From a virus (lineage: Duplodnaviria; Heunggongvirae; Uroviricota; Caudoviricetes), in the IMG/VR virus record IMGVR_UViG_2547132488_000020: DNA of 8,977 nt; one strand, given 5' to 3'. Below, piece by piece: positions 17 to 8,977 of the stretch. A model generated the notes under the pieces. That model was not told where the DNA came from and made no database searches. It worked only from the letters and a program-made list of their open reading frames with translations. The translations under genes were made by a program, and so were the position numbers. Numbering within the stretch: the first letter of the stretch is position 1; each line of letters opens with the position of its first letter.

Positions 17-62
17 GATTACGCCGGATTATGCCGGGTTATTTGCAAGTATTCAGGGTTAT
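17..62 (+). promoter_or_regulatory. Phased 10-bp direct-repeat element, copy A, upstream of the structural operon
   Basis: Hexamers GATTAC (17-22), GATTAT (27-32), GGTTAT (37-42), weaker AAGTAT (47-52) and GGTTAT (57-62) recur at exactly 10-bp spacing. Positions 17-42 match 4897-4922 at 23 of 26 bases. Role as a protein-binding site is inferred. Confidence 0.4.
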
Positions 63-177
63 AAGTTACTGATTTTACATTAAAAAGCTCACATTGTGGC
101 TATTGTGTTCGGCCTGGTTACTGTATATCTTTAAGTCATTCCAGACGATTTATTGCACAACAACCGGAGCATTTTTA

Positions 178-1062
178 ATGAACGTTTTATCTCAACTTAT
201 CAACGACGCGTTGAACCACCAGGGCGGCCATGTTCGCACTGATGGCAACGGTGATATTACTCAATTTATCCCTATGGAACCGGCAGCAGTTCGCTACCTG
301 TCCATGAATGACGTGCTGACCCCGAAAGGCGGCAAGCAGACTACCTTCAACGCTGTTCTGGCTGAACGTTCGCTGGTGGCACAGGCAGGCGCTGAAATCA
401 TCCGCATTCCTGGCCCGATGACCACGCAACCGACCGGCCAGACTGGTGCAACGACTGGCCGCGAAGTGGCTGACCGCTTCGTTGTCATCCGCCCTGGTGC
501 GTTCGCCAAAGTGGCTGACGGCGAAGAAATCAGCATGAGCGGCAAGCCGTACATGGTTGCAGCATTCGACCACAACACCGCACCGGCTTACGGCGTTGGC
601 TACACCCTGACCCGCCAGCAACTGAAACACGAATTCGCTGACGATACAGTGCTGGAAGCGGTCAACACCGCCATTGAACGCGGCATTGCCGATCTGGCTG
701 ACTTCGTGCTGCTGAACCACCTGGAAACCGCAGCGGAAACGCTGGCCAGCCCGTCATTCACCGCAGTGGCGCAGAAGATTGCAGCCAAAAACCTGCGCTT
801 TGATGAAGTTAAAGCCATTGTTGGCGGTGATTGCACCGGCCTGGAACTGCAAGACGGCGTTCTGCGCGCCTACGGTGTACGCGCTGAAATCAGCGGCCAG
901 ACTTCCAGCACAATCATTGGCGCTTTCGGCAATGCAGCCGTTGCCCTGGATGATGAAATTCGCGTCACCGCCAGACGCGTGCTGAATGGTGCGGTTGAAG
1001 TGGTGGTTTGGGTGAACGCATCCGCACTGGTGCCTGACTCAACTATGTTCTGGAAGGCTTGA
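178..1062 (+). CDS. Putative virion structural protein, possibly HK97-fold major capsid-like (294 aa); function unverified
   Basis: Long ORF with ATG at 178 preceded by GGAG (166-169) at 8-nt spacing. The 94-177 extension in the ORF track starts at TTG and reads as hydrophobic noise. Gly/Ala/Thr/Val-rich, acidic composition with a C-terminal segment IIGAFGNAAVALDDEIRV that resembles the conserved C-terminal strand of HK97-family capsid proteins (recalled from memory, not searched). First gene of an operon ending in a tape-measure gene. Confidence 0.6.
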   Translation: MNVLSQLINDALNHQGGHVRTDGNGDITQFIPMEPAAVRYLSMNDVLTPKGGKQTTFNAVLAERSLVAQAGAEIIRIPGPMTTQPTGQTGATTGREVADRFVVIRPGAFAKVADGEEISMSGKPYMVAAFDHNTAPAYGVGYTLTRQQLKHEFADDTVLEAVNTAIERGIADLADFVLLNHLETAAETLASPSFTAVAQKIAAKNLRFDEVKAIVGGDCTGLELQDGVLRAYGVRAEISGQTSSTIIGAFGNAAVALDDEIRVTARRVLNGAVEVVVWVNASALVPDSTMFWKA

Positions 1063-1064
1063 TC

Positions 1065-1379
1065 ATGTGGTGGGGCAGCAAAAAAGCGGCAGCGGAGCGC
1101 GCTGCCCTGCCGGGTGAAATCCTGGCAGCTATCGAAGGTGTGGCCATGTATGTGCGCCACGGTGATGAAAACACACCGCGCATCGTAGTGCAGCCGGTTG
1201 GCTGGTCAGGATTCATCTACAGCGATGACGCTGCTGAAAAATGGATTCGCAAGGCTTACCCGGAGATTAAGCAGTACCAGATTGAACGCGCCGTGAATTA
1301 CCTCGCTTCCCTGGTGCGCAGTCACTACCGCGAGCAGCGCCCGAAACAGAAGCGCGAAAGCTGGATGAACAGGTACTAA
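1065..1379 (+). CDS. Hypothetical protein (104 aa)
   Basis: ATG at 1065 with GGAAGG (1053-1058) SD at 6-nt spacing, 2 nt after the upstream stop; stop TAA 1377-1379 lies 3 nt before the next start. No motif recognised. Confidence 0.55.
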   Translation: MWWGSKKAAAERAALPGEILAAIEGVAMYVRHGDENTPRIVVQPVGWSGFIYSDDAAEKWIRKAYPEIKQYQIERAVNYLASLVRSHYREQRPKQKRESWMNRY

Positions 1380-1382
1380 GCC

Positions 1383-1547
1383 ATGAAACGACAAGAAACA
1401 CGCCAGCACGTAACGGTACGCCTCGCCCCTGACCTGGTGCGCCAGGTCGAAAGAGAGCAAGCCAAACTGGAACGCAGAACAGGCATCCGCCCTTCACGCA
1501 GCCAGGTGATTGAAAAGTTTCTGAGTAGCGGGCTGAACGGCAAATAA
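1383..1547 (+). CDS. Ribbon-helix-helix (CopG/Arc/MetJ-like) DNA-binding protein (54 aa)
   Basis: Hand translation gives MKRQETRQHVTVRLAPDLVRQVEREQAKLERRTGIRPSRSQVIEKFLSSGLNGK. The pattern beta-strand VTVRL, helix PDLVRQVEREQAK, Gly turn, helix RSQVIEKFL is the classic RHH layout. AGGT SD 8 nt upstream. Below the ORF-track size cutoff. Confidence 0.6.
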   Translation: MKRQETRQHVTVRLAPDLVRQVEREQAKLERRTGIRPSRSQVIEKFLSSGLNGK

Positions 1548-1761
1548 TGGCCAAGAATACAGGTTTCACCGGTTCCCTGTGCCCAAAATAACCGGCCAAA
1601 TTTAACCTTCATCGTTCCTCAGACGATGGATGCTGGAACCAGGTTGGTGGTCATCCTGGACGGTCAAAACCACCACTAATTCCACACCGGTTGCGCCGCA
1701 CCGGTCACCTAAAAGCGCGCACTCACTTAATCATCAACAACTATTGTTAGCGGCCAATACT

Positions 1762-2079
1762 ATGAAAAACCATGACCTGTACGAATCAATGAAAGAAGAA
1801 GCGCGTTTGATCCTTAGCGAAACAAAGCGTTTCCAAACCATTTCAGAGAAAAACCCAATCAGCTACGAAGCAGCCGACCTGCTGGCCAGCCTTCGCAACC
1901 GTTTAAACGCATTCGAACACATGACCGATGAAGCCGGTCGCGCCATGCGCAACGAAGCGGAAAGCCACGCATCGACCCTGGAACGCAAGAAGTGGCAACC
2001 ATCCAGCCGCATCAGTTCCGGTGAACGGGCCAAGCGCCAGGCAGTGAAGCGCGGCGCTATCCTGGTGCGGAGCGCATAA
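1762..2079 (+). CDS. Hypothetical helical, charged protein (105 aa; alternative start 1630 gives 149 aa)
   Basis: ORF in frame with 1630..2079. The N-terminal extension from 1630 is low-complexity and overlaps the CACCGGT motifs, so 1762 is preferred, but neither start has a good SD. Stop TAA 2077-2079 is 2 nt before the next ATG. Confidence 0.5.
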   Translation: MKNHDLYESMKEEARLILSETKRFQTISEKNPISYEAADLLASLRNRLNAFEHMTDEAGRAMRNEAESHASTLERKKWQPSSRISSGERAKRQAVKRGAILVRSA

Positions 2080-2081
2080 GA

Positions 2082-2291
2082 ATGGCAACCAACAACAACA
2101 TTTATGAAGCCGTTCTGAACGTCATCGGCGTAGCCGACAAGATGACGAAGAACAACGCAAGCCAACTGACCGACGCACAAAAGTTGGCGATCAAGAACCT
2201 TAGCGGCGCGATGAAGTCCTGGAAAGGTATCACGTTTGGGATGCGCGACATCACCGCCAACGACAAACCAACAGAAAGCAAAACCGCATAA
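2082..2291 (+). CDS. Hypothetical small protein (69 aa)
   Basis: ATG 2082 tightly following the upstream stop, with GGAG 2066-2069 upstream. Position just before the tape-measure gene is where tail assembly chaperones usually sit, but no sequence evidence supports that role. Confidence 0.5.
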   Translation: MATNNNIYEAVLNVIGVADKMTKNNASQLTDAQKLAIKNLSGAMKSWKGITFGMRDITANDKPTESKTA

Positions 2292-2300
2292 GGGGGCACC

Positions 2301-2507
2301 ATGCTGGACCGTATTCACACAAAACCGGAAGGAACAAACCCCTGGCCTGAACTGGTGGATATGGTCCTGCCCAAAGTTATGGTTTGCGAAACAGCGGAGG
2401 GAATGCAGGCACAGCGTAAACATCGCACCGAATGCGCCCTGCAACTGGCTGCTGCCGCCCTGCGGGCTGCTGGTGAACACACCCTGGCAGAAAATCTACT
2501 TAATTAA
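2301..2507 (+). CDS. Hypothetical small protein (68 aa)
   Basis: ATG 2301 preceded by a strong AGGGGG SD (2291-2296). Same reading frame as 2082..2291, separated only by TAA plus 9 nt. Confidence 0.5.
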   Translation: MLDRIHTKPEGTNPWPELVDMVLPKVMVCETAEGMQAQRKHRTECALQLAAAALRAAGEHTLAENLLN

Positions 2508-2528
2508 TTCTTTCAGAGACAAATTATT

Positions 2529-4820
2529 ATGGCCAATAAGAAGTTGAACGCCACAATCACCATCGGGGGTGCCGTTTCCGGCAGCCTCCGCGGTGCTTTT
2601 GGTACGGTGGAGAAATCCACCATCAAGATTGGCGCAGCGATTAAGCACATGTCGCGCGAACAGCGCCAGCTTAACGACGCTATGAAGCGTTATGGGCAAA
2701 ACTCCACGATGGTTGACCGCCTGCGCGGTCGTTACGAAAACATCGTAGGCCAGGTGGAACGCCTGCGGGCTGCGCAAGAGCGTTTAAACAGAGTGCAACG
2801 CGCCAGCACGGAAAACCTGGCCAAGCAGGCACAGCTACGCGGGCAGATTATCGATACCGTTATGGCTGGTGCTGCCGTTGCCGCACCTATCAAGATTGCC
2901 GCAGATCGTGAACAGCACGCCATTGGCATTGCCAAACAACTGGACGGCGCACGCGATGCAGCGGGCAACCTGACGGCGAAGTTTTGGGAAATGCGCAAGG
3001 CCGTTGCTGACCTTGGGCACGAAATTCCACTGGCCACAAACGACCTGTTTGACATGGCCACAGCAGGGCTGCGCATGGGCGTAGCTGGCGACCAAATCCT
3101 GGGGTTCACCCGGAACGTGGCCAAACTGGCCAGCGCCTTGGAACTGAACCCGGAAGAAGTCGCAGACAATATGGGCAAAATCCAGAATGTTTATCGACTT
3201 ACTCAAGCTGAGCTTGTGCGCCTTGGTGATGCTATTAATTACCTGGACGACCAAAACACCGTTAAAGGCGGTGAGCTTATCGACTTCCTACAGCGTGTTG
3301 GTGGTTCCGCCTCCCTCGCCAAACTCACTGCCAACGATATGGCAGCAATCGGCACCACGCTGATTTCTATGGGTGAAAGCGCAGACACTGCCGCAACGTC
3401 AGTGAAGGCGCTTGTTTCCAAGATGACGCTGGGCAGCAAATCCACGAAATCTGCGCGCGAAGCGTTCAAGGAATTGGGTTATTCCGCGCAGGAAGTGGCG
3501 AAATCCATGCAACTGGATAGCGTCAAGACCATCGAAAACTTTATGAAGACGGTCAACAAGCTGCCAGATTACAAGAAATCCGGCATCCTGGTGTCCATCT
3601 TCGGGCAGGAACACGTTGGTTCTATCTCCAAACTGGCAGCCAACATGGACAAGTTTGGCGAGGCGTTGCACCAGGCTAATGGCGAAATGTCCAAAGGCAG
3701 TGTGCAGAAGGAATTCCAGAACACCGTCAACACCACCAACGCGCAGATGGTTATCCTGCGTAACCGCACCGCTGACGTGGCTGACAATATCGGCACCGTC
3801 CTGCTGCCGACCGTCAACGACGCAGCCAAAGGCATTGGCCGCATCACAACTGTTGTGGCGAACTTCGCGGCGGAACACCCCGGCCTGACCAAAGCCGTGG
3901 TGGGCACAGCGATGGCGCTCACGTCCCTGCGTGTGGCCACCCTGGCGGCGCAGTTCGGCTTCACGTTCCTGAAAGGTGGCGTGTTGCAGATGTCCAGCCT
4001 GTTTGCCCGCATGAACGCATCTGCCGTTCTGGCCAGCACCCGTGGCCTGCCTGCGGTGGCTACCGGCATTCGTGCCGTTGGTGCGGCGTTCATATCCACT
4101 GGCGTGGGTGCTGCCGTAGCTGGCCTGGCGCTGGCAGGTTATCAGATTTACCGCCATTGGGCCGGTGTGAAGGCTTTTTTTGGTGGCGTTGGTGAAGGCA
4201 TCAAATCCGGGTTGGAACCGCTTAGCGATGCCCTGCATCGCCTGTATGAGCGCATGGGGCCATTGAAGCCCGTCATTGATGGCGTGGGCGCTGCGGTTAA
4301 GACGGTTTTCAACTGGTTCACGTCACTGACCGAACCGGTCAAATACAGCGGCGAGGAACTGGATAAGGCCGGTAAAATGGGGATGACGTTCGGTAAGACC
4401 CTGGCGGCTGGCATCGAGCTTGTGACCGCACCGATCACGTTCCTGATTGATAAGATTCTGTGGGTGTCTGACAACATCGGCAACCTGACCAACAAGGCAC
4501 TGGAGTTTAAAAACGCCGTGTCTGATGTTGCTGGTGGTGCGTGGCAGAAAACCAAAGATTTCTTTAGCAATCCGTTCGGTGAAGACGAAAGCAGCCAGCC
4601 AGCAGCGACCGCCGCCCCTGGTGCGTCCTTGCCTTCACCGGCACTGGCTAACCGCACCGGCAACACAACGGTGAACACGAACGACCAGTACACCATCAAC
4701 GTGAAGGCCGAGCCTGGCATGAATGAAGATGCGCTGGCAAATAAGGTGGCGCAGAAGCTGAAACAGCAGCAAGGAATCCGAAATCGTAGCATGATGAATG
4801 ACGGATTAGCAGCACCGTAA
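2529..4820 (+). CDS. Phage tail tape-measure protein-like (763 aa)
   Basis: Uninterrupted 2292-nt ORF. N-terminal Arg/Gln/Glu/Ala-rich helical region; a core (approx. aa 150-330) reading ATNDLFDMATAGLRMGVAGDQILGFTRNVAKLASALELNPEEVADNMGKI ... IGTTLISMGESADTAATSVKALVSKMTLGS that matches my memory of the TP901-family tape-measure core; a long Gly/Ala-rich hydrophobic segment (approx. aa 450-560). Size and layout are typical of TMPs. Not verified by search. Confidence 0.75.
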   Translation: MANKKLNATITIGGAVSGSLRGAFGTVEKSTIKIGAAIKHMSREQRQLNDAMKRYGQNSTMVDRLRGRYENIVGQVERLRAAQERLNRVQRASTENLAKQAQLRGQIIDTVMAGAAVAAPIKIAADREQHAIGIAKQLDGARDAAGNLTAKFWEMRKAVADLGHEIPLATNDLFDMATAGLRMGVAGDQILGFTRNVAKLASALELNPEEVADNMGKIQNVYRLTQAELVRLGDAINYLDDQNTVKGGELIDFLQRVGGSASLAKLTANDMAAIGTTLISMGESADTAATSVKALVSKMTLGSKSTKSAREAFKELGYSAQEVAKSMQLDSVKTIENFMKTVNKLPDYKKSGILVSIFGQEHVGSISKLAANMDKFGEALHQANGEMSKGSVQKEFQNTVNTTNAQMVILRNRTADVADNIGTVLLPTVNDAAKGIGRITTVVANFAAEHPGLTKAVVGTAMALTSLRVATLAAQFGFTFLKGGVLQMSSLFARMNASAVLASTRGLPAVATGIRAVGAAFISTGVGAAVAGLALAGYQIYRHWAGVKAFFGGVGEGIKSGLEPLSDALHRLYERMGPLKPVIDGVGAAVKTVFNWFTSLTEPVKYSGEELDKAGKMGMTFGKTLAAGIELVTAPITFLIDKILWVSDNIGNLTNKALEFKNAVSDVAGGAWQKTKDFFSNPFGEDESSQPAATAAPGASLPSPALANRTGNTTVNTNDQYTINVKAEPGMNEDALANKVAQKLKQQQGIRNRSMMNDGLAAP

Positions 4821-4845: not shown

Positions 4846-4877
4846 AAAGCCTGGGTGAAAACTCTGGCTTTTTTTTA
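4846..4877 (+). terminator. Intrinsic terminator after the tape-measure gene
   Basis: Hairpin 4846-4856 pairing with 4861-4871 (about 11 bp, one mismatch, one GU) around a GAAA tetraloop, followed by T8 (4869-4876). Confidence 0.6.
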
Positions 4878-4896: not shown

Positions 4897-4922
4897 GATT
4901 ATGCCGGATTATGTGGGGTTAT
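4897..4922 (+). promoter_or_regulatory. Phased 10-bp direct-repeat element, copy B, upstream of the replication operon
   Basis: GATTATGCCGGATTATGTGGGGTTAT; 23 of 26 bases identical to 17-42, with GATTAT, GATTAT, GGTTAT at 10-bp phasing. Confidence 0.4.
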
Positions 4923-4992
4923 GAGTGACATTTACCTTTTTAAATGCCTGAAATTATTTATGAATTTTCGGCCTATATTTTGGCAAAATAGC

Positions 4993-5051: not shown

Positions 5052-5120
5052 AAGGAAAACCCCCGGACTGCGCGAACAATCCAGGGGGCTTAATGAAAGT
5101 CTAGGTTAGCGGCCTGACTA
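5052..5120 (-). ncRNA. Candidate small antisense RNA (about 65 nt) with its own promoter and intrinsic terminator
   Basis: On the minus strand: TTGCTA (plus 5150-5155), 17-bp spacer, TAGTAT (plus 5127-5132); no ATG in the transcribed stretch; GC-rich hairpin (plus 5060-5066 pairing with 5081-5088, one bulge) followed on the minus strand by UUUUCCUUUUU (plus 5049-5059). Ends are approximate. Confidence 0.3.
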
Positions 5121-5221
5121 GGAAAAATACTAGCAAAGACCTTTACCTTTAGCAAGTTAAACCCCCCTTCATTGAGCCACCGATTTTAGCGCAGCCTCAA
5201 CGAAATATTGAGGAATGCGAA

Positions 5222-5497
5222 ATGAAATTGCACGACCTGGCTGACGCCATCCTGAAAACCAGAACCGTTGAAACTCGCTGTGATGCTGCGTTCAAATTCG
5301 CTGACGCTATGCTGCGCAACGGTTCAAGCATCACCGACACAGCGGAAGCAACCTACCGCATTGTAATGCGCGGGAACAAAGCCTACCGCCTGAACAAAGA
5401 TGACGCCTGGCGCATCACTGCGCACGCCTACGCTGAACAACTGGCGGAACGCGAAGTGGCCACCGTCCTGGCGCAGATTGCCGGGGGTGCGAAATGA
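5222..5497 (+). CDS. Small hypothetical protein, first gene of the replication operon (91 aa)
   Basis: ATG 5222 with GAGGA SD (5210-5214) at 7-nt spacing; stop overlaps the next start as ATGA. Shares the motif [YF]x[LF]N[KR]xDAW and an AGGA[KA] C-terminus with the next ORF. Confidence 0.6.
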   Translation: MKLHDLADAILKTRTVETRCDAAFKFADAMLRNGSSITDTAEATYRIVMRGNKAYRLNKDDAWRITAHAYAEQLAEREVATVLAQIAGGAK

Positions 5498-5727
5498 GCA
5501 TCATCACCCTGCATCGCCTTATGCGCGAACCTGCTACCAGCCAGACGCACGCACAGTGCGTGGCCATCATGCAGGAACTGATTAAGCAGGCCATCCAGTC
5601 TGGCCGCCCGCTGCAATATTCCATCTACCTGGGGCACCTGGCAGAGCACACCCGCTTCCCGTTCAACCGCGTGGACGCCTGGCAAATGGCGCTGGATATG
5701 CAGCGCAAGGCAGGGGGTGCGGCATGA
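5494..5727 (+). CDS. Small hypothetical protein resembling the preceding ORF (77 aa)
   Basis: Start overlaps the upstream stop (ATGA at 5494-5497) and its stop overlaps the primase start (ATGA at 5724-5727). GGGGGTG SD-like sequence sits inside the upstream C-terminus. Confidence 0.6.
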   Translation: MSIITLHRLMREPATSQTHAQCVAIMQELIKQAIQSGRPLQYSIYLGHLAEHTRFPFNRVDAWQMALDMQRKAGGAA

Positions 5728-8012
5728 GTCTGGCACACGAAAAGTACGCCTGGACTGAACAGGACGCAGCCGAGGCGTTGACATTTATTGACCCTGATTG
5801 CGACCACGAAACCTGGACCCGCCTGGCGTTTGCGGTGAAGGCTGAATTTGGTGACGCTGGATTTGATGTCTGGAACGATTGGAGCAAACAGGGCCAGAAG
5901 TACGACAGCAAAGAAGCACGCCAGAAGTGGAAAAGCGCCAAGCGGCACGGCGGAGTAACCATCGGCACGCTGATTGACCTTTCCATGCAGAACGGCTGGA
6001 AGCCGGGCACCAGGAAAGAGCTTTCAATAGACGAGATTCAGGCTCGCGCCGCGAAGCGTGAGGCCGAAGCTAAAGCCGAGGCAGAGCGCAAGCGCCACGA
6101 CCAGGCAGCAGCGGCAGCCCGCGCCCTGGAAATATGGGAAGCATCGGAACCGCTGGAAGGTAACGAACACCCGTATTTGCAGCGCAAAGGTGTGCTGTCT
6201 TTCGGCCTGAACGTTGGCCGCTGGAAGGGATACGAAAATGCACTGCTGGTGCCAATCCGCAACGCTGATGGTTCCCTAACCAGCTTGCAGGCAATCTTCC
6301 CGAACACCAACACTGACCTGGGCCGTGACCGTGACTACCTGAAAGACGGCCAGAAGCACGGTTGTTTCCACCTGATTGGCGGTAAGCCTGTTGGCGAAAA
6401 GCCGGTGATTGTGGTTTGCGAGGGTTACGCCACTGGTGCCAGCATCCACCAGGCAACAGGCCATTACGTGGCCGTGGCTTTCGACAGGAGCAACCTTAAA
6501 GCTGTGGCGCAGGCCATGCGCAAGATGGTTGGCCGCGCCACAATAATTGTGGCCGCTGATAACGACCAGTGGGAGAAGGGCAACCCCGGAAAAACCGATG
6601 CAGGTAAGGCAGCGCAGGCGGTTGGCGGCCTGGTGGCTGTGCCTGAATTCGATGACCTGACCACGAAGCCGACCGACTTCAACGACCTGCATAAATTGCA
6701 GGGAATTGATGCCGTGCGCAGCCAGGTGCAGGCTGTTATTCCAGCACCGGAGGAAAAGCGGTTCCTGCCACTGGATTCTAATGTGGTGCCGTTTGACTTC
6801 CCCTACACGTCAGACAGGATGCAGCCGCTTAACAACTGGGAAAACCTTGATTGGCTGTTAAGTCAGTACGGCATTACCGCTCGTTACAACGAGATCAGCA
6901 AGGAAGTTGAAATCAACGTGCCTGGTAAAAGCTATGGCGGTGACGGTGATGACGATAGCGCGCTGATTGAAGTGACCAGCCTGTGCGCCCGTAACCGGAT
7001 GCCAAAAGCTGACGTGGCTGACTACATCAAACTGATTGGCAAAGAGAACCGTTACAACCCGGTCAAAGACTTCATTCTGTCCAGGCCGTGGGATGGTTGC
7101 AGCCGGTTTGCTGACCTGTTAGCCACCATTGAAACGCCAGCAGATTACAGCCGTGACCTGATGGCGCTACTGATGAAACGCTGGCTGGTGTCGGCAGTGG
7201 CGGCGACATTTGAGGAACGCGGGTTCTGGTCCAAAGGCATCCTGGTGTTCCAGGGGGAGCAATCCCTTGGGAAAACGTCATGGATTAAGGCGCTGCTGCC
7301 GGAGGAAGAACAGGAAAAGCTATTGCTGGTTGGTGCTGCGATGGACCCTAGCAACAAAGACAGCGTATCGCAGGCAATTGGCCGCTGGATTGTGGAGCTT
7401 GGCGAACTGGACACCACATTCCGCAAGTCTGACATATCGGACCTGAAAAACTTCATCAGCCGCCCACATGACGTGCTGCGCAAGCCGTATGATCGCCGTG
7501 AATCGAAGTATAAGCGCAGGACTGTGTTCTTCGCATCAGTGAACCCGAAACACTTCCTGCATGACGAAACCGGCAACGTGCGTTTCTGGACCATTCCGGT
7601 GACCGGGCTGAACTATAATCACGGCATCGACGTGCAGCAGTTATGGGCCGAAGTGCATCACTGGTACACGAAAGGCGAACGCTGGTGGCTGGAACGCGAG
7701 GAAGAACAGCGCCTGGAAGCGGTGAACGCTGACCACGCGCAGGTTGACCCGCTCGAGGAAATGATTTTAGCCCGCTTCCGCTGGGATGAAACCCGCATGG
7801 AGGTTTACACCGAAATGTCAGCCGCAGAAGTGCTGATAGCGATTGGCTACGACAAGCCAACCAAATCGCAGGCCACATCATGCGGCAACATCCTGCGCAA
7901 GCTGACTGGCAAGGAGCCGCGCAGAACAGCCAAAGGGCGGTTCTACCCGATACCGCCAAAAGAATTACCAAAGCCACAAAGCTATTACGACGAAACCCAA
8001 GGCCCATTTTGA
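5724..8012 (+). CDS. Replicative primase-helicase, P4 alpha-type (Toprim primase plus P-loop NTPase; 762 aa)
   Basis: Toprim motifs VVCEGYATG (Glu233, nt 6417-6425) and AADNDQW (Asp279/Asp281, nt 6558-6566); Walker A GEQSLGKTS (aa 511-519, nt 7254-7280); Walker B-like IVELGELD; Trp-rich N-terminal domain ending GVTIGTLIDL. Architecture matches the phage/plasmid primase P4 family from memory. Confidence 0.9.
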   Translation: MSLAHEKYAWTEQDAAEALTFIDPDCDHETWTRLAFAVKAEFGDAGFDVWNDWSKQGQKYDSKEARQKWKSAKRHGGVTIGTLIDLSMQNGWKPGTRKELSIDEIQARAAKREAEAKAEAERKRHDQAAAAARALEIWEASEPLEGNEHPYLQRKGVLSFGLNVGRWKGYENALLVPIRNADGSLTSLQAIFPNTNTDLGRDRDYLKDGQKHGCFHLIGGKPVGEKPVIVVCEGYATGASIHQATGHYVAVAFDRSNLKAVAQAMRKMVGRATIIVAADNDQWEKGNPGKTDAGKAAQAVGGLVAVPEFDDLTTKPTDFNDLHKLQGIDAVRSQVQAVIPAPEEKRFLPLDSNVVPFDFPYTSDRMQPLNNWENLDWLLSQYGITARYNEISKEVEINVPGKSYGGDGDDDSALIEVTSLCARNRMPKADVADYIKLIGKENRYNPVKDFILSRPWDGCSRFADLLATIETPADYSRDLMALLMKRWLVSAVAATFEERGFWSKGILVFQGEQSLGKTSWIKALLPEEEQEKLLLVGAAMDPSNKDSVSQAIGRWIVELGELDTTFRKSDISDLKNFISRPHDVLRKPYDRRESKYKRRTVFFASVNPKHFLHDETGNVRFWTIPVTGLNYNHGIDVQQLWAEVHHWYTKGERWWLEREEEQRLEAVNADHAQVDPLEEMILARFRWDETRMEVYTEMSAAEVLIAIGYDKPTKSQATSCGNILRKLTGKEPRRTAKGRFYPIPPKELPKPQSYYDETQGPF

Positions 8013-8022
8013 GGAATAAATC

Positions 8023-8250
8023 ATGAGTTATCGCGCGATCATCAGTACATTTGACCCTGAAAACGCATCAACTGTTAACACTGAATTATTCCAGACCTTC
8101 GCAACCGCACCAGAAGCGGAAGCACATGGACGGAAATCACTTGCAGAGATTCAGCAGGAATTCTTCCAGATGGGTTATGCGTTCATCGTCAGCTACTTCA
8201 TCGTTGAAGTACCAGCGGCGGAAATCATCCAGTTTATTGCCCGCACGTAA
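8023..8250 (+). CDS. Hypothetical small protein (75 aa) at the end of the replication operon
   Basis: ATG 8023 with GAGGA SD 7 nt upstream, 10 nt after the primase stop; followed by a terminator. No motif recognised. Confidence 0.55.
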   Translation: MSYRAIISTFDPENASTVNTELFQTFATAPEAEAHGRKSLAEIQQEFFQMGYAFIVSYFIVEVPAAEIIQFIART

Positions 8251-8273
8251 CATCACAACAATTGTTGTTCACC

Positions 8274-8300
8274 GCCCTGGCACCTGCCGGGGCTTTTTTA
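8274..8300 (+). terminator. Intrinsic terminator closing the replication operon
   Basis: Stem 8274-8281 pairing with 8286-8293 (8 bp including one GU), 4-nt loop, then T6 (8294-8299). Confidence 0.6.
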
Positions 8301-8311
8301 TTGTCTGGCTG

Positions 8312-8572
8312 TGACACCTAGGTGTCATCCTGTCTTAAGGTGTCACAGTCGTAAGTGTCTGTTTTTGCTTATTAATGACACCTATGACACCTATGACACC
8401 TATTTTGAAAGATTTATTAGACCGTAAAAAACCGCCGCGAAATAACGGTTACCCTTTTTTTGAAAACAGGTGTCAAGGTGTCACTACCAACCCATGCAAT
8501 CAGCATAAATCGCATATGAATCATGCACTTATGTGTGTGACACCTATGGTGACACCTCAACCCAAGGTGTCA
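8312..8572. repeat. Iteron array: 11 copies of heptamer TGACACC/GGTGTCA flanking an AT-rich stretch; putative replication origin
   Basis: Forward copies at 8312, 8376, 8385, 8394, 8538, 8550; reverse copies at 8321, 8339, 8469, 8477, 8566. Includes a perfect 16-bp palindrome (8312-8327) and three tandem TGACACCTA 9-mers (8376-8402). AT-rich segment 8401-8466 with A6 and T7 runs. Confidence 0.7.
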
Positions 8573-8977
8573 TTCTTTCAGGGCATAGCTGCGCACCGTT
8601 ATGGCGTTATGAATCCACTCATTTGTAACAACGCTTTTTCACATCTAACCAAAGCGGCAGCCGGAATAGGTACAACATACAGAAGTATGATGTAACTACA
8701 GGAAACGAGCCTTTCAGCCTTGTTTTGCGTTCAAACAGTAGCTGCTCAGTAAACAGCCAGAACGTTGCACATATCGCAACAATAAGCCTGTGTGAATACG
8801 GGCTGAAAGCGCGCGGAATATGTCAGATTATGCGCCGTTCGCCTGCCAGCACCTTCCTGGTGCTTCTTTCTGCCTGCAAACCCACCATATTTAACATAAT
8901 GGACCTTGCGCGCACCGACTGGACGCCTGCCTGCCTCAAAAATCGAAGGTACTTCCGAGGGGGCACAGCCTGCGGGG

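What the first reader, a model, noticed from the sequence alone, without database searches (positions are those of the whole stretch)
17..62. Helically phased hexamer repeats upstream of the structural operon
Five GRTTAY-like hexamers at exact 10-bp spacing place every repeat on one face of the DNA helix, as expected for cooperative binding of a regulator or recombination directionality factor. No P2/P4 late-promoter TGT-N12-ACA site is present, so any activator would differ from Ogr/Delta.
Basis: seen in the sequence. Interest (0 to 1): 0.5.

Follow-up and report, generated by a model that had tools for sequence, protein, structure and literature searches.

The report
Phased regulator-binding repeats in a phage satellite
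The repeats are real, conserved, and present in front of both operons of a small plasmid-like phage satellite; they most likely form a docking array for an excisionase-type DNA-binding protein, probably supplied by the helper phage, which would let the satellite sense infection.

Summary
GRTTAY hexamers start at 17, 27, 37 and 57. The one at 47 is AAGTAT, a variant kept in most relatives. No shuffle of the window (0 of 3000) gave even one run of three, yet the window has two runs.

The second run (4897-4922) lies upstream of the replication operon. Both runs follow a terminator-like hairpin and sit 18 nt before a TAAA -10-like element. Spacing is gapless over 112 nt in relatives whose capsid-like protein is only 58-75% identical.

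The window is a 9.1-kb circular plasmid-like satellite of Jilinvirus-type myophages. It mimics their cos site and carries its own capsid-like protein, tape measure protein and primase.

The helper's attP region has the same kind of array, between its tRNA-Arg gene and its integrase gene. Integrated sister satellites carry a 22-23/26 identical copy upstream of their alpA promoter.

Direct repeats one helical turn apart are typical of Xis/Cox/Apl-type directionality factors. P2 Cox acting on P4 PLL is the closest precedent.

The window encodes no such protein, so the binder is inferred to come from the helper. Binding and promoter activity remain untested. This is a new member of a known kind, in an apparently undescribed satellite family.

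The parts
17..62 (+). Array 1: five hexamers in 10-bp register (GATTAC, GATTAT, GGTTAT, AAGTAT, GGTTAT), all in one orientation, upstream of the capsid-like/tape-measure operon
   Evidence: Conserved without indels in relatives, with the T.A/TTA core invariant in hexamers 1, 2, 3 and 5.
69..86 (+). Promoter-like elements after array 1: CTGATT (69-74, TGA invariant), TTTACA (74-79), TAAAAA (81-86, exactly 18 nt after the last hexamer). Which of these is used is inferred, not shown.
   Evidence: Read from the sequence and alignment A5. The 18-nt spacing is the same in relatives and at array 2. No consensus sigma-70 promoter was scored here.
90..112 (+). Conserved 23-mer CACATTGTGGCTATTGTGTTCGG (contains ATTGTG-N3-ATTGTG). 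Function unknown; probably leader or a second operator.
   Evidence: Present in inverted orientation in L020/L021.
178..4820 (+). Structural operon: capsid-like protein (178-1062), five small ORFs, tape measure protein (2529-4820)
   Evidence: (homologues fused to the HK97 prohead protease domain)
4848..4877 (+). Hairpin followed by a run of eight T after the tape measure gene (terminator-like, read by eye)
   Evidence: not listed by the scan because of a stem mismatch
4897..4922 (+). Array 2: GATTAT gccg GATTAT gtgg GGTTAT, 23/26 identical to 17-42, upstream of the replication operon
   Evidence: Conserved in relatives.
4931..4960 (+). Putative replication-operon promoter: TTTACC (4931-4936), 18 nt, TATTTA (4955-4960). 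TAAATG at 4941-4946 lies 18 nt after the last hexamer.
   Evidence: Read. The homologous site in L001 scores as TTTACT-16-TATTAT.
5060..5087 (-). Minus-strand intrinsic terminator inside the replication-operon leader (probable antisense or small RNA)
   Evidence: same arrangement in L001
5222..8250 (+). Replication operon: 91-aa and 77-aa helical proteins, PriCT2-Toprim-VapE primase/helicase (5724-8012), 75-aa protein
8309..8573 (.). About twelve GGTGTCA/TGACACC iterons in both orientations (probable origin). Distinct from the hexamer arrays.
8816..8831 (+). Two-hexamer partial array GAATAT gtca GATTAT, left of the cos-like segment. Too short to judge.
8946..8977 (+). Left part of the cos-like segment shared with helper phages. 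The rest lies in about 160 bp missing between the window's end and its start.

Best explanation
The array is an operator made of phased direct repeats. It would be bound cooperatively by a small winged-helix protein of the excisionase / recombination-directionality-factor kind (Xis, Cox, Apl, Vis; PHROG 66).

One monomer would sit on each hexamer, on one face of the DNA. The resulting filament would bend the DNA and switch the promoter immediately downstream. In the window there are two such switches: one before the capsid-like/tape-measure operon (17-62) and one before the replication operon (4897-4922).

The window has no gene of this protein family. The binder is therefore most likely the helper phage's own excisionase/regulator, made early in infection. 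That would couple satellite replication and structural-gene expression to the arrival of the helper, as P2 Cox does at the P4 PLL promoter.

Shown here: the arrays, their conservation, their positions, the helper identity, and the related arrays in the helper attP region and in sister satellites. Inferred: protein binding, which protein binds, whether the effect is activation or repression, and the transcription start sites.
For: 1. Non-random. There are two runs of three or more GRTTAY in exact 10-bp register, against 0 of 3000 shuffles with even one run. Period 10 is the only period that gives any.

2. Same placement twice. Each array follows a terminator-like hairpin, precedes an operon, and lies 18 nt before a TAAA element. 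The two arrays are 23/26 identical, and their differences fall in a spacer and at the degenerate Y position.

3. Phylogenetic footprint. Ten class A relatives align over 112 nt with no indel, although their capsid-like proteins are 58-100% identical to the window's. The invariant columns are the T.A/TTA cores at 19-21, 29-32, 39/41 and 59/61/62.

4. The homologous slot in sister satellites is a promoter. It holds GACAAACCCCAAGAAGAA, which occurs five times, all on the + strand, in the late region of helper ep3. The slot is therefore a regulatory cassette.

5. The helper is identified. A 73-bp cos segment is 97% identical to the cos region of Jilinvirus phages and lies at the ends of the ECOO78 and Arya records. 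The tape measure protein is 42-44% identical and the primase 61% identical to helper proteins.

6. The helper carries the same kind of array. HeidiAbel has AATTATgtggCGTTATtcgcGGTTAA between its tRNA-Arg gene and its integrase gene, followed by ATACCCTAAACC twice. It is conserved in Alux-21 and MQ-4 and partly in Arya and PPpW-3. Shuffled helper genomes contain 0.007 such arrays on average, against 2 observed.

7. Integrated sister satellites carry a 22-23/26 identical copy upstream of a scored sigma-70 promoter for alpA, where shuffles reach at most 19-20.

8. Candidate binders exist. The helper protein Bas97_0036, the satellite HTH_17 protein (49% identical to it) and satellite AlpA all hit PHROG 66, 'excisionase and transcriptional regulator'.

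9. Literature. Directionality-factor sites are direct repeats one helix turn apart. At least three adjacent operators are needed, and the same kind of array is used at att sites and at distant promoters (PMC7498355). P2 Cox activates satellite P4 PLL through repeated cox-boxes (PMC3936717).
Against: No binding data exist.

The window encodes no AlpA, HTH_17 or Xis-like protein. Only a 3' remnant of the HTH_17 gene is left near 8650-8670. The binder therefore has to come from outside the element.

The window's own arrays match the helper attP 26-mer at only 16-17/26, which shuffles also reach. The direct sequence link therefore holds for the integrated relatives only. For the window it is a link of motif class and position.

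The attempted covariation with the Enterobacter phage Arya was concordant in location but not significant.

No consensus sigma-70 promoter is scored downstream of array 1, and no start site is known.

The fourth repeat (AAGTAT plus an invariant TTC) departs from the others and may serve another factor.

The helper array abuts the 5' end of a tRNA-Arg gene on the opposite strand, so part of its conservation could reflect tRNA promoter function. Calling that region attP is itself an inference from the tRNA-integrase layout.
Confidence: 0.5

Rival explanations
1. The arrays are operators for a regulator encoded by the satellite itself that is not of the excisionase type. An example would be the 91-aa or 77-aa product of the replication operon, acting as an autorepressor or copy-number and immunity protein that also silences the structural operon.
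For: Array 2 sits directly before the operon whose first genes encode small proteins of unknown function. The 91-aa protein is found only in elements whose array 2 reads GATTATgccgGATTATgtggGRTTAT. The 77-aa protein has a weak co-linear match to a Cro protein, E = 0.36.
Against: AlphaFold models of both proteins are confident (pLDDT 90.6 and 83.4). They are plain four-helix bundles with no significant PDB neighbour and no wing or beta element. No Pfam, PHROG or NCBIfam family matches them. Arrays persist in elements with quite different small-protein sets: AlpA plus a 93-aa protein in L001, and 84-aa plus 97-aa proteins in L003. No single satellite protein is common to all array-bearing elements.
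Confidence: 0.17
2. The arrays are bound by a host protein, for example an OmpR/PhoB-type response regulator that reads tandem sites. Alternatively they act without a specific protein, as intrinsically curved, UP-element-like DNA that boosts a weak promoter.
For: AT-rich hexamers alternate with GC-rich tetramers at 10-bp period, a pattern that favours anisotropic bending. The arrays lie at roughly -40 to -90 of the putative promoters. The window encodes no binder.
Against: Specific base positions are invariant, not just AT content. A near-identical 26-mer is present in the helper attP region and in sister satellites, which points to a phage-specific factor. The array is absent from the rest of the E. 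coli chromosome. No host factor consensus was tested; resemblance to OmpR, CpxR or ArcA half-sites is from memory only and does not fit well.
Confidence: 0.12
3. The array is a packaging signal: a cosB-like set of sites for the helper's Nu1-type small terminase, or for a redirected terminase, located to the right of the cos cleavage site.
For: Array 1 lies about 170-230 bp to the right of the cos-like segment. The helper small terminase has a Nu1-type winged-helix N-terminus. A two-hexamer partial array lies about 125 bp to the left of cos.
Against: The helper has no such array between its cos site and its terS gene. Array 2 is 4.9 kb from cos. Integrated relatives carry the array next to int/alpA, far from cos. 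Class B satellites with an ep3-like cos (L006) lack array 1.
Confidence: 0.06
4. The array is a neutral tandem duplication or a chance feature with no function.
For: The first 26 nt form a simple 10-bp tandem repeat of 2.6 copies.
Against: 0 of 3000 shuffles give one array, and the window has two. Register and core bases are conserved in relatives whose capsid-like protein is down to 58% identical, while spacers vary.
Confidence: 0.03

Closest known systems
P2 Cox acting on cox-boxes upstream of the satellite P4 PLL promoter (PMC3936717)
   Same: A helper-encoded small winged-helix excisionase/regulator binds several repeated boxes. It forms a filament, bends the DNA, and switches on the satellite operon that starts with an AlpA/Vis-type gene and ends with the primase. 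The same protein also acts at the helper's own att site.
   Different: The box sequence differs (TTAAAG/CNCA against RRTTAY). Cox-boxes vary in orientation, whereas here all hexamers point one way. The helper is a Jilinvirus-type myophage with an HTH_17-type protein, not a P2-like phage with a Cox-family protein. In the window a second array also precedes a structural operon. Binding is not shown here.
186 Apl operators at attP and pR-pL (PMC7498355)
   Same: Five to seven direct repeats at 10-11 bp spacing. Three adjacent operators are required. The same kind of array is used at the att site and at promoters far from it.
   Different: Apl represses its own phage's switch promoters. Here the arrays lie on a satellite that lacks the protein. 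The sequences are unrelated.
Lambda Xis X1-X1.5-X2 and mycobacteriophage L5/Pukovnik Xis tandem sites (from my own knowledge)
   Same: Head-to-tail binding of winged-helix monomers to direct repeats about one helical turn apart, lying between the core and the arm-type sites. The helper array lies between the tRNA gene and ATACCCTAAACC repeats in the same way.
   Different: Those sites serve recombination only. The window has no integrase and no att site, so a role in transcription is the only one available.
Helper late-promoter mimicry in sister satellites (GACAAACCCCAAGAAGAA)
   Same: It occupies the same slot upstream of the same capsid-like gene and is a helper-responsive regulatory cassette.
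   Different: It is a different motif and presumably a different helper protein (the late activator, PHROG 836). The motif is absent from the window.

Membership tests
Operator arrays of recombination directionality factors (Xis/Cox/Apl/Vis type) | Three or more direct repeats in one orientation, spaced one helical turn (10-11 bp) apart | tested here: met
   17-62 and 4897-4922; only period 10 gives runs; 0 of 3000 shuffles give one
Operator arrays of recombination directionality factors (Xis/Cox/Apl/Vis type) | Arrays of similar sequence and arrangement at the att site of the phage that encodes the factor and at promoters away from att | tested here: inconclusive
   Met for the helper attP region against the alpA-promoter arrays of integrated satellites (22-23/26, above all shuffles). 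The window's own arrays share only motif class and position (16-17/26, within the shuffle range).
Operator arrays of recombination directionality factors (Xis/Cox/Apl/Vis type) | A small winged-helix directionality-factor protein is present in the system | tested here: inconclusive
   Present in the helper (Bas97_0036/ep3_004), in relatives L003/L004 (HTH_17) and in integrated forms (AlpA), all PHROG 66. Absent from the window.
Operator arrays of recombination directionality factors (Xis/Cox/Apl/Vis type) | Cooperative binding and DNA bending by the protein | not testable with these tools
   Needs EMSA or footprinting
P2/P4 late promoters (Ogr/Delta dependent) | TGT-N12-ACA dyad near -55 | tested here: not met
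   The single match in the window is inside the tape measure gene at 4459-4476
Jilinvirus-type helper late promoters | GACAAACCCCAAGAAGAA motif upstream of the operon | tested here: not met
   0 matches with up to 3 mismatches in the window. Five in ep3. Present in class B sister satellites.
Replication iterons | The repeat family clustered at the origin next to the initiator gene | tested here: not met
   That role is filled by about twelve GGTGTCA/TGACACC repeats at 8309-8573. The hexamer arrays have a different sequence and lie elsewhere.
cosB / small-terminase binding sites | Sites next to the cos cleavage site and shared with the helper whose terminase is used | tested here: not met
   No array between cos and terS in ep3 or HeidiAbel. 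Array 2 is 4.9 kb from cos.
CRISPR repeat (Rfam CRISPR-DR11) | Score above the gathering threshold; repeat-spacer organisation | tested here: not met
   23.9 bits against a gathering score of 45, E = 0.58; no spacers
Tandem sites of OmpR/PhoB-type response regulators | Match to a known half-site consensus in 10-11 bp register | not tested
   Considered from memory only; no library of host binding sites was available

The most novel reading that the evidence does not exclude
The arrays are the helper-sensing switch of an undescribed family of phage satellites that parasitise Jilinvirus-type myophages. The family includes plasmid-borne members with no integrase. These plasmid forms would have lost their own excisionase-like gene and would use the helper's excisionase purely as a transcription signal. 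That signal would turn on both satellite replication and an operon encoding the satellite's own capsid protein and tape measure, so that both head and tail of the helper virion could be remodelled. Sister lineages have rewired the same operon to the helper's late activator instead.
Probability: 0.3. Interest if true: 0.7.

Novelty: new member of a known kind. Interest (0 to 1): 0.5.

Why it matters
If the model is right, 46 bp of DNA give a direct experimental handle on how a small, widespread enterobacterial plasmid/island family detects its helper phage. The family is present in 66 of 5426 complete E. coli genomes and also occurs in Salmonella, Enterobacter, Cronobacter and Proteus.

It would extend the P2 Cox / P4 PLL paradigm, in which a helper excisionase is read as an infection signal, to an unrelated phage group.

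It would also show that the same structural operon can be wired either to a helper early protein (the hexamer arrays) or to the helper late activator (the GACAAACCCCAAGAAGAA cassette). That is a natural experiment in satellite timing.

The arrays themselves are not a new mechanism.

Tried and rejected
- **RNA structure.** Both arrays, on both strands, fold no better than shuffles (z = +0.47, +0.57, +0.04, -1.28).
- **Rfam.** Only sub-threshold chance hits: CRISPR-DR11 at 13-49 and AgvB at 8246-8299.
- **tRNAs.** None found.
- **Consensus promoter scan.** Nothing downstream of either array in the window or in L004. Only the L001 alpA promoter scores.
- **Genome-contig scan with the capsid-protein alignment.** No loci found. 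Relatives came instead from the look-up of encoding contigs and from the viral and metagenome scans.
- **GRTTAY arrays at helper promoters or cos.** None, apart from the attP region and one array overlapping the start codon of the late-activator gene.
- **Conserved 23-mer in the helper.** Absent.
- **Candidate binders in the window.** No family hits for any small ORF. The 91-aa and 77-aa proteins are plain helical bundles without PDB neighbours.
- **tblastn of helper excisionase, HTH_17 and AlpA against the window.** Only noise. The best hit is E = 0.018, in an alternative frame inside the 91-aa gene, and I treat it as chance.
- **Covariation with phage Arya's attP array.** The best match falls on the Enterobacter satellites' array 1 but is not above shuffles.
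- **Presence/absence correlation of satellite genes with arrays.** No satellite protein is common to all array-bearing elements.
- **Similarity of the satellite capsid-like protein to the helper head protein.** None detectable by BLASTP.
- **Host transcription-factor consensus sequences.** Recalled from memory only; none fits convincingly.

Full report
**1. The observation**

Positions 17-62 read GATTAC gccg GATTAT gccg GGTTAT ttgc AAGTAT tcag GGTTAT.
- Four hexamers match GRTTAY exactly, at 17, 27, 37 and 57.
- The one at 47 is AAGTAT, with two mismatches.
- Tandem Repeats Finder sees a 10-bp period over 17-42.
- GRTTAY is over-represented in the window: 23 occurrences against 9.07 expected.

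A run of three or more GRTTAY in 10-bp register never arose in 3000 dinucleotide shuffles of the window, nor in 20000 shuffles of 1-177. No period other than 10 gives even a pair.

**2. A second array**

The same search found GATTAT gccg GATTAT gtgg GGTTAT at 4897-4922. It is 23/26 identical to 17-42 and lies in the only other long intergenic region.

Array 1 precedes the operon from the capsid-like gene (178-1062) to the tape measure gene (2529-4820). Array 2 precedes the operon of two small ORFs, a PriCT2-Toprim-VapE primase/helicase (5724-8012) and a 75-aa ORF.

The two arrays share their surroundings.
- Each follows a terminator-like hairpin. One is at 8274-8293, with the origin and cos regions in between. 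The other is a hairpin plus a run of eight T at 4848-4877.
- In each, the last hexamer is followed after exactly 18 nt by TAAA (81-84 and 4941-4944).
- TTCGGCCT follows about 50 nt downstream.

**3. What the element is**

The window is a circular permutation, about 160 bp short, of a 9.1-kb non-mobilizable plasmid (pSCU-121-2, 98.7% identical). A related plasmid is pM121-3.

The same structural module also occurs in islands integrated between yhdJ and fis. Those islands carry an integrase, AlpA and a VapE-domain replication protein.

The 294-aa protein has no family hit. Some of its homologues are fused to an HK97 prohead protease domain, and one source names one of them a major capsid protein.

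A 73-bp segment is 97% identical to Jilinvirus-type myophages (ep3, ECO1230-10, HeidiAbel; 92.5% over 80 bp in PT1). It lies at the physical ends of the ECOO78 and Arya records (a 50-bp match at 92%, and a 39-bp match at 92%), so it is their cos site. This segment spans the window's last 32 bases and the missing piece.

The tape measure protein is 42-44% identical to the tape measure proteins of these phages. The primase is 61% identical to the ep3 primase. The capsid-like protein is not detectably similar to the helper head protein.

The element has no terminase, portal or integrase. The best reading is a satellite of Jilinvirus-type phages. I found no paper that describes it.

**4. Conservation of array 1**

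Upstream regions were taken from 24 related loci. They fall into two classes that cut across capsid-protein similarity.

Class A carries the array. Ten distinct class A sequences align over 112 nt without a single indel, although their capsid-like proteins are 58-100% identical to the window's. The invariant columns are the TTA/T.A cores of hexamers 1, 2, 3 and 5. Spacers vary: gccg, gtca, gtcg, tcat.

The fourth repeat is AAGTAT in all but the Enterobacter-type elements. It is followed by an invariant TTC, so it may be a separate site.

The 61-nt array segment occurs in 21 of 5426 complete E. coli genomes, once each, with no feature annotated under the match. In the eleven of those records also listed, the coordinates place it just upstream of the capsid-like gene. 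That disposes of the 'common genomic motif' objection.

**5. The slot is a regulatory cassette**

Class B satellites have aTGACAAACCCCAAGAAGAAa at the same place. The 18-mer GACAAACCCCAAGAAGAA occurs five times in helper ep3, three of them exact. All are on the + strand in the late region:
- within the 3' end of the late-activator gene, upstream of the holin gene
- near the end of the large terminase gene, upstream of the head-tail joining gene
- inside the major head protein gene
- in the gap before the baseplate wedge gene
- upstream of the tail gene at 31494

This is very probably the helper's late-promoter motif. Sister satellites therefore drive the same operon from a helper late promoter. 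The window lacks that motif and also lacks the P2/P4 TGT-N12-ACA site. Class A must use another signal.

**6. The link to an excisionase-type protein**

HeidiAbel has intact int and cI genes. It carries AATTAT gtgg CGTTAT tcgc GGTTAA at 22900-22925. This lies between its tRNA-Arg gene and its integrase gene and is followed by two ATACCCTAAACC repeats. That is the layout expected for excisionase sites lying between the core and the arm-type sites of an attP.

The array is conserved in Alux-21 and Serratia phage MQ-4, and partly in Arya and PPpW-3. Shuffled helper genomes contain 0.007 such arrays on average, against 2 observed.

Integrated satellites carry, just after int and upstream of a scored TTTACT-16-TATTAT promoter for alpA, a four-hexamer array. 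Its best 26 nt are 22-23/26 identical to the helper attP array. This is also the best match to that 26-mer anywhere in those loci, and it exceeds every shuffle. This array is the positional homologue of the window's array 2.

Within L001, arrays 1 and 2 share GTTATttgcA.

Three proteins all hit PHROG 66, 'excisionase and transcriptional regulator':
- the helper protein Bas97_0036 (ep3_004)
- the 65-68-aa HTH_17 protein of plasmid relatives L003/L004, which is 49% identical to it
- the AlpA of the integrated forms

According to the literature, directionality-factor sites are direct repeats one helix turn apart. [quoted passage not shown] P2 Cox activates the satellite P4 PLL promoter through repeated cox-boxes (PMC3936717).

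**7. What is missing in the window**

The HTH_17 gene is truncated in the near-identical sibling L017 and reduced to a few codons in the window. No AlpA is present.

The two small proteins after array 2 give confident all-helical AlphaFold models (pLDDT 90.6 and 83.4). Neither has a significant PDB neighbour or a winged-helix feature.

No satellite protein is common to all array-bearing elements. The simplest reading is that the helper's excisionase/regulator acts in trans. This step is inferred.

The window's arrays resemble the helper's attP array only in motif class and spacing (16-17/26, which shuffles also reach).

**8. Promoter geometry (inferred)**

At array 2, TTTACC-18-TATTTA would place the hexamer centres near -47, -57 and -67. 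In L001 the four hexamers fall near -57 to -87, on the same helical face.

At array 1 no consensus promoter is scored. There are two possibilities:
- TAAAAA (81-86) is the -10 element and the fifth hexamer occupies the -35 position. This is the layout of an activator-dependent promoter.
- The invariant TGA at 70-72 marks a -35 element with a poor -10.

Whether binding activates or represses cannot be decided from sequence.

**9. Rivals**

- **A satellite-encoded regulator not of the excisionase type.** Possible, but unsupported by fold or distribution.
- **A host factor or intrinsic curvature.** This does not explain the invariant bases or the helper and sister-satellite copies.
- **A cosB-like packaging role.** Contradicted by the absence of arrays next to the helper cos site and by arrays far from cos.
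- **RNA structure and chance.** Both are excluded.

**10. Verdict**

The feature is real and conserved. It is almost certainly a protein-binding operator that controls both operons of the element. It is most likely read by an excisionase-type protein, probably the helper's.

The mechanism is a known kind (Cox/Apl/Xis arrays). What is new is the system it belongs to.

Noticed in passing
whole window; 8946-8977 and the roughly 160 bp missing between the window's end and start: The window is a 9.1-kb circular, non-mobilizable plasmid (98.7% identical to pSCU-121-2). It looks like an undescribed satellite of Jilinvirus-type myophages. It has a 73-bp cos mimic, its own capsid-like protein and tape measure protein, and a primase 61% identical to the helper's. 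It has no terminase, portal or integrase. Integrated versions sit between yhdJ and fis.
   Followed up: partly
window 8309-8573: About twelve GGTGTCA/TGACACC repeats in both orientations, including ATGACACCT three times (8375-8403) and AGGTGTCA twice (8468-8483). This is probably the replication origin. Helper ep3 has an analogous GGTCACC/AGTCACC cluster at 13180-13450, upstream of its late-activator gene.
   Followed up: partly
window 5060-5200 (- strand); L001 8851-9010: A minus-strand intrinsic terminator lies inside the leader of the replication operon. In L001 there is also a minus-strand promoter-like site upstream of it. Together they suggest a conserved antisense or small RNA, perhaps for copy-number or immunity control. 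There is no Rfam match.
   Followed up: partly
window 90-112; L020/L021 upstream of the capsid-like gene: The 23-mer CACATTGTGGCTATTGTGTTCGG is conserved in all class A elements. In L020/L021 a near-identical copy (1-2 mismatches) lies in inverted orientation directly before the class B motif. Its function is unknown and it is absent from helper ep3.
   Followed up: partly
L006, L010, L011, L013, L016, L020 upstream of the capsid-like gene; L009 (ep3) 13868, 18141, 20880, 25182, 31405: Sister satellites replace the hexamer cassette with GACAAACCCCAAGAAGAA. This is an 18-mer present five times, all on the + strand, in the helper's late region, and is probably the helper late-promoter motif. The same operon is thus wired to two different helper signals.
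   Followed up: partly
L009 (ep3) 13492-13517; L027 (HeidiAbel) 38817-38842: A three-hexamer array, AATTAT tggg GGTTAC atgg AATTAC, overlaps the ribosome-binding site and start codon of the helper's late-activator gene. It may be a site where the helper excisionase/regulator controls late gene expression, or it may be coincidence.
   Followed up: no
L001 7351-7386 (- strand), and the same place in L011, L015, L018, L020, L023, L025: Integrated satellites have a four-hexamer array in 10-bp register (AATTAT ctag AGTGAT aata AATTAC gtat AATGAC) between yhdJ and int, in the presumed attL arm. These may be excision sites of the same protein class.
   Followed up: no
window 5222-5727: The 91-aa and 77-aa proteins have the same four-helix layout and share a motif, N-(K/R)-x-D-A-W, at the start of the last helix. 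They may be paralogues. They occupy the places of AlpA and the 93-aa protein in integrated elements.
   Followed up: partly
L003 40-170 and L017 3340-3420: Plasmid relatives with a different primase type (PriCT2-DUF5906) have GTAACC/GGTTAC repeats in place of the GGTGTCA iterons. L003/L004 also have two TAACCACGC direct repeats before the HTH_17 gene.
   Followed up: no
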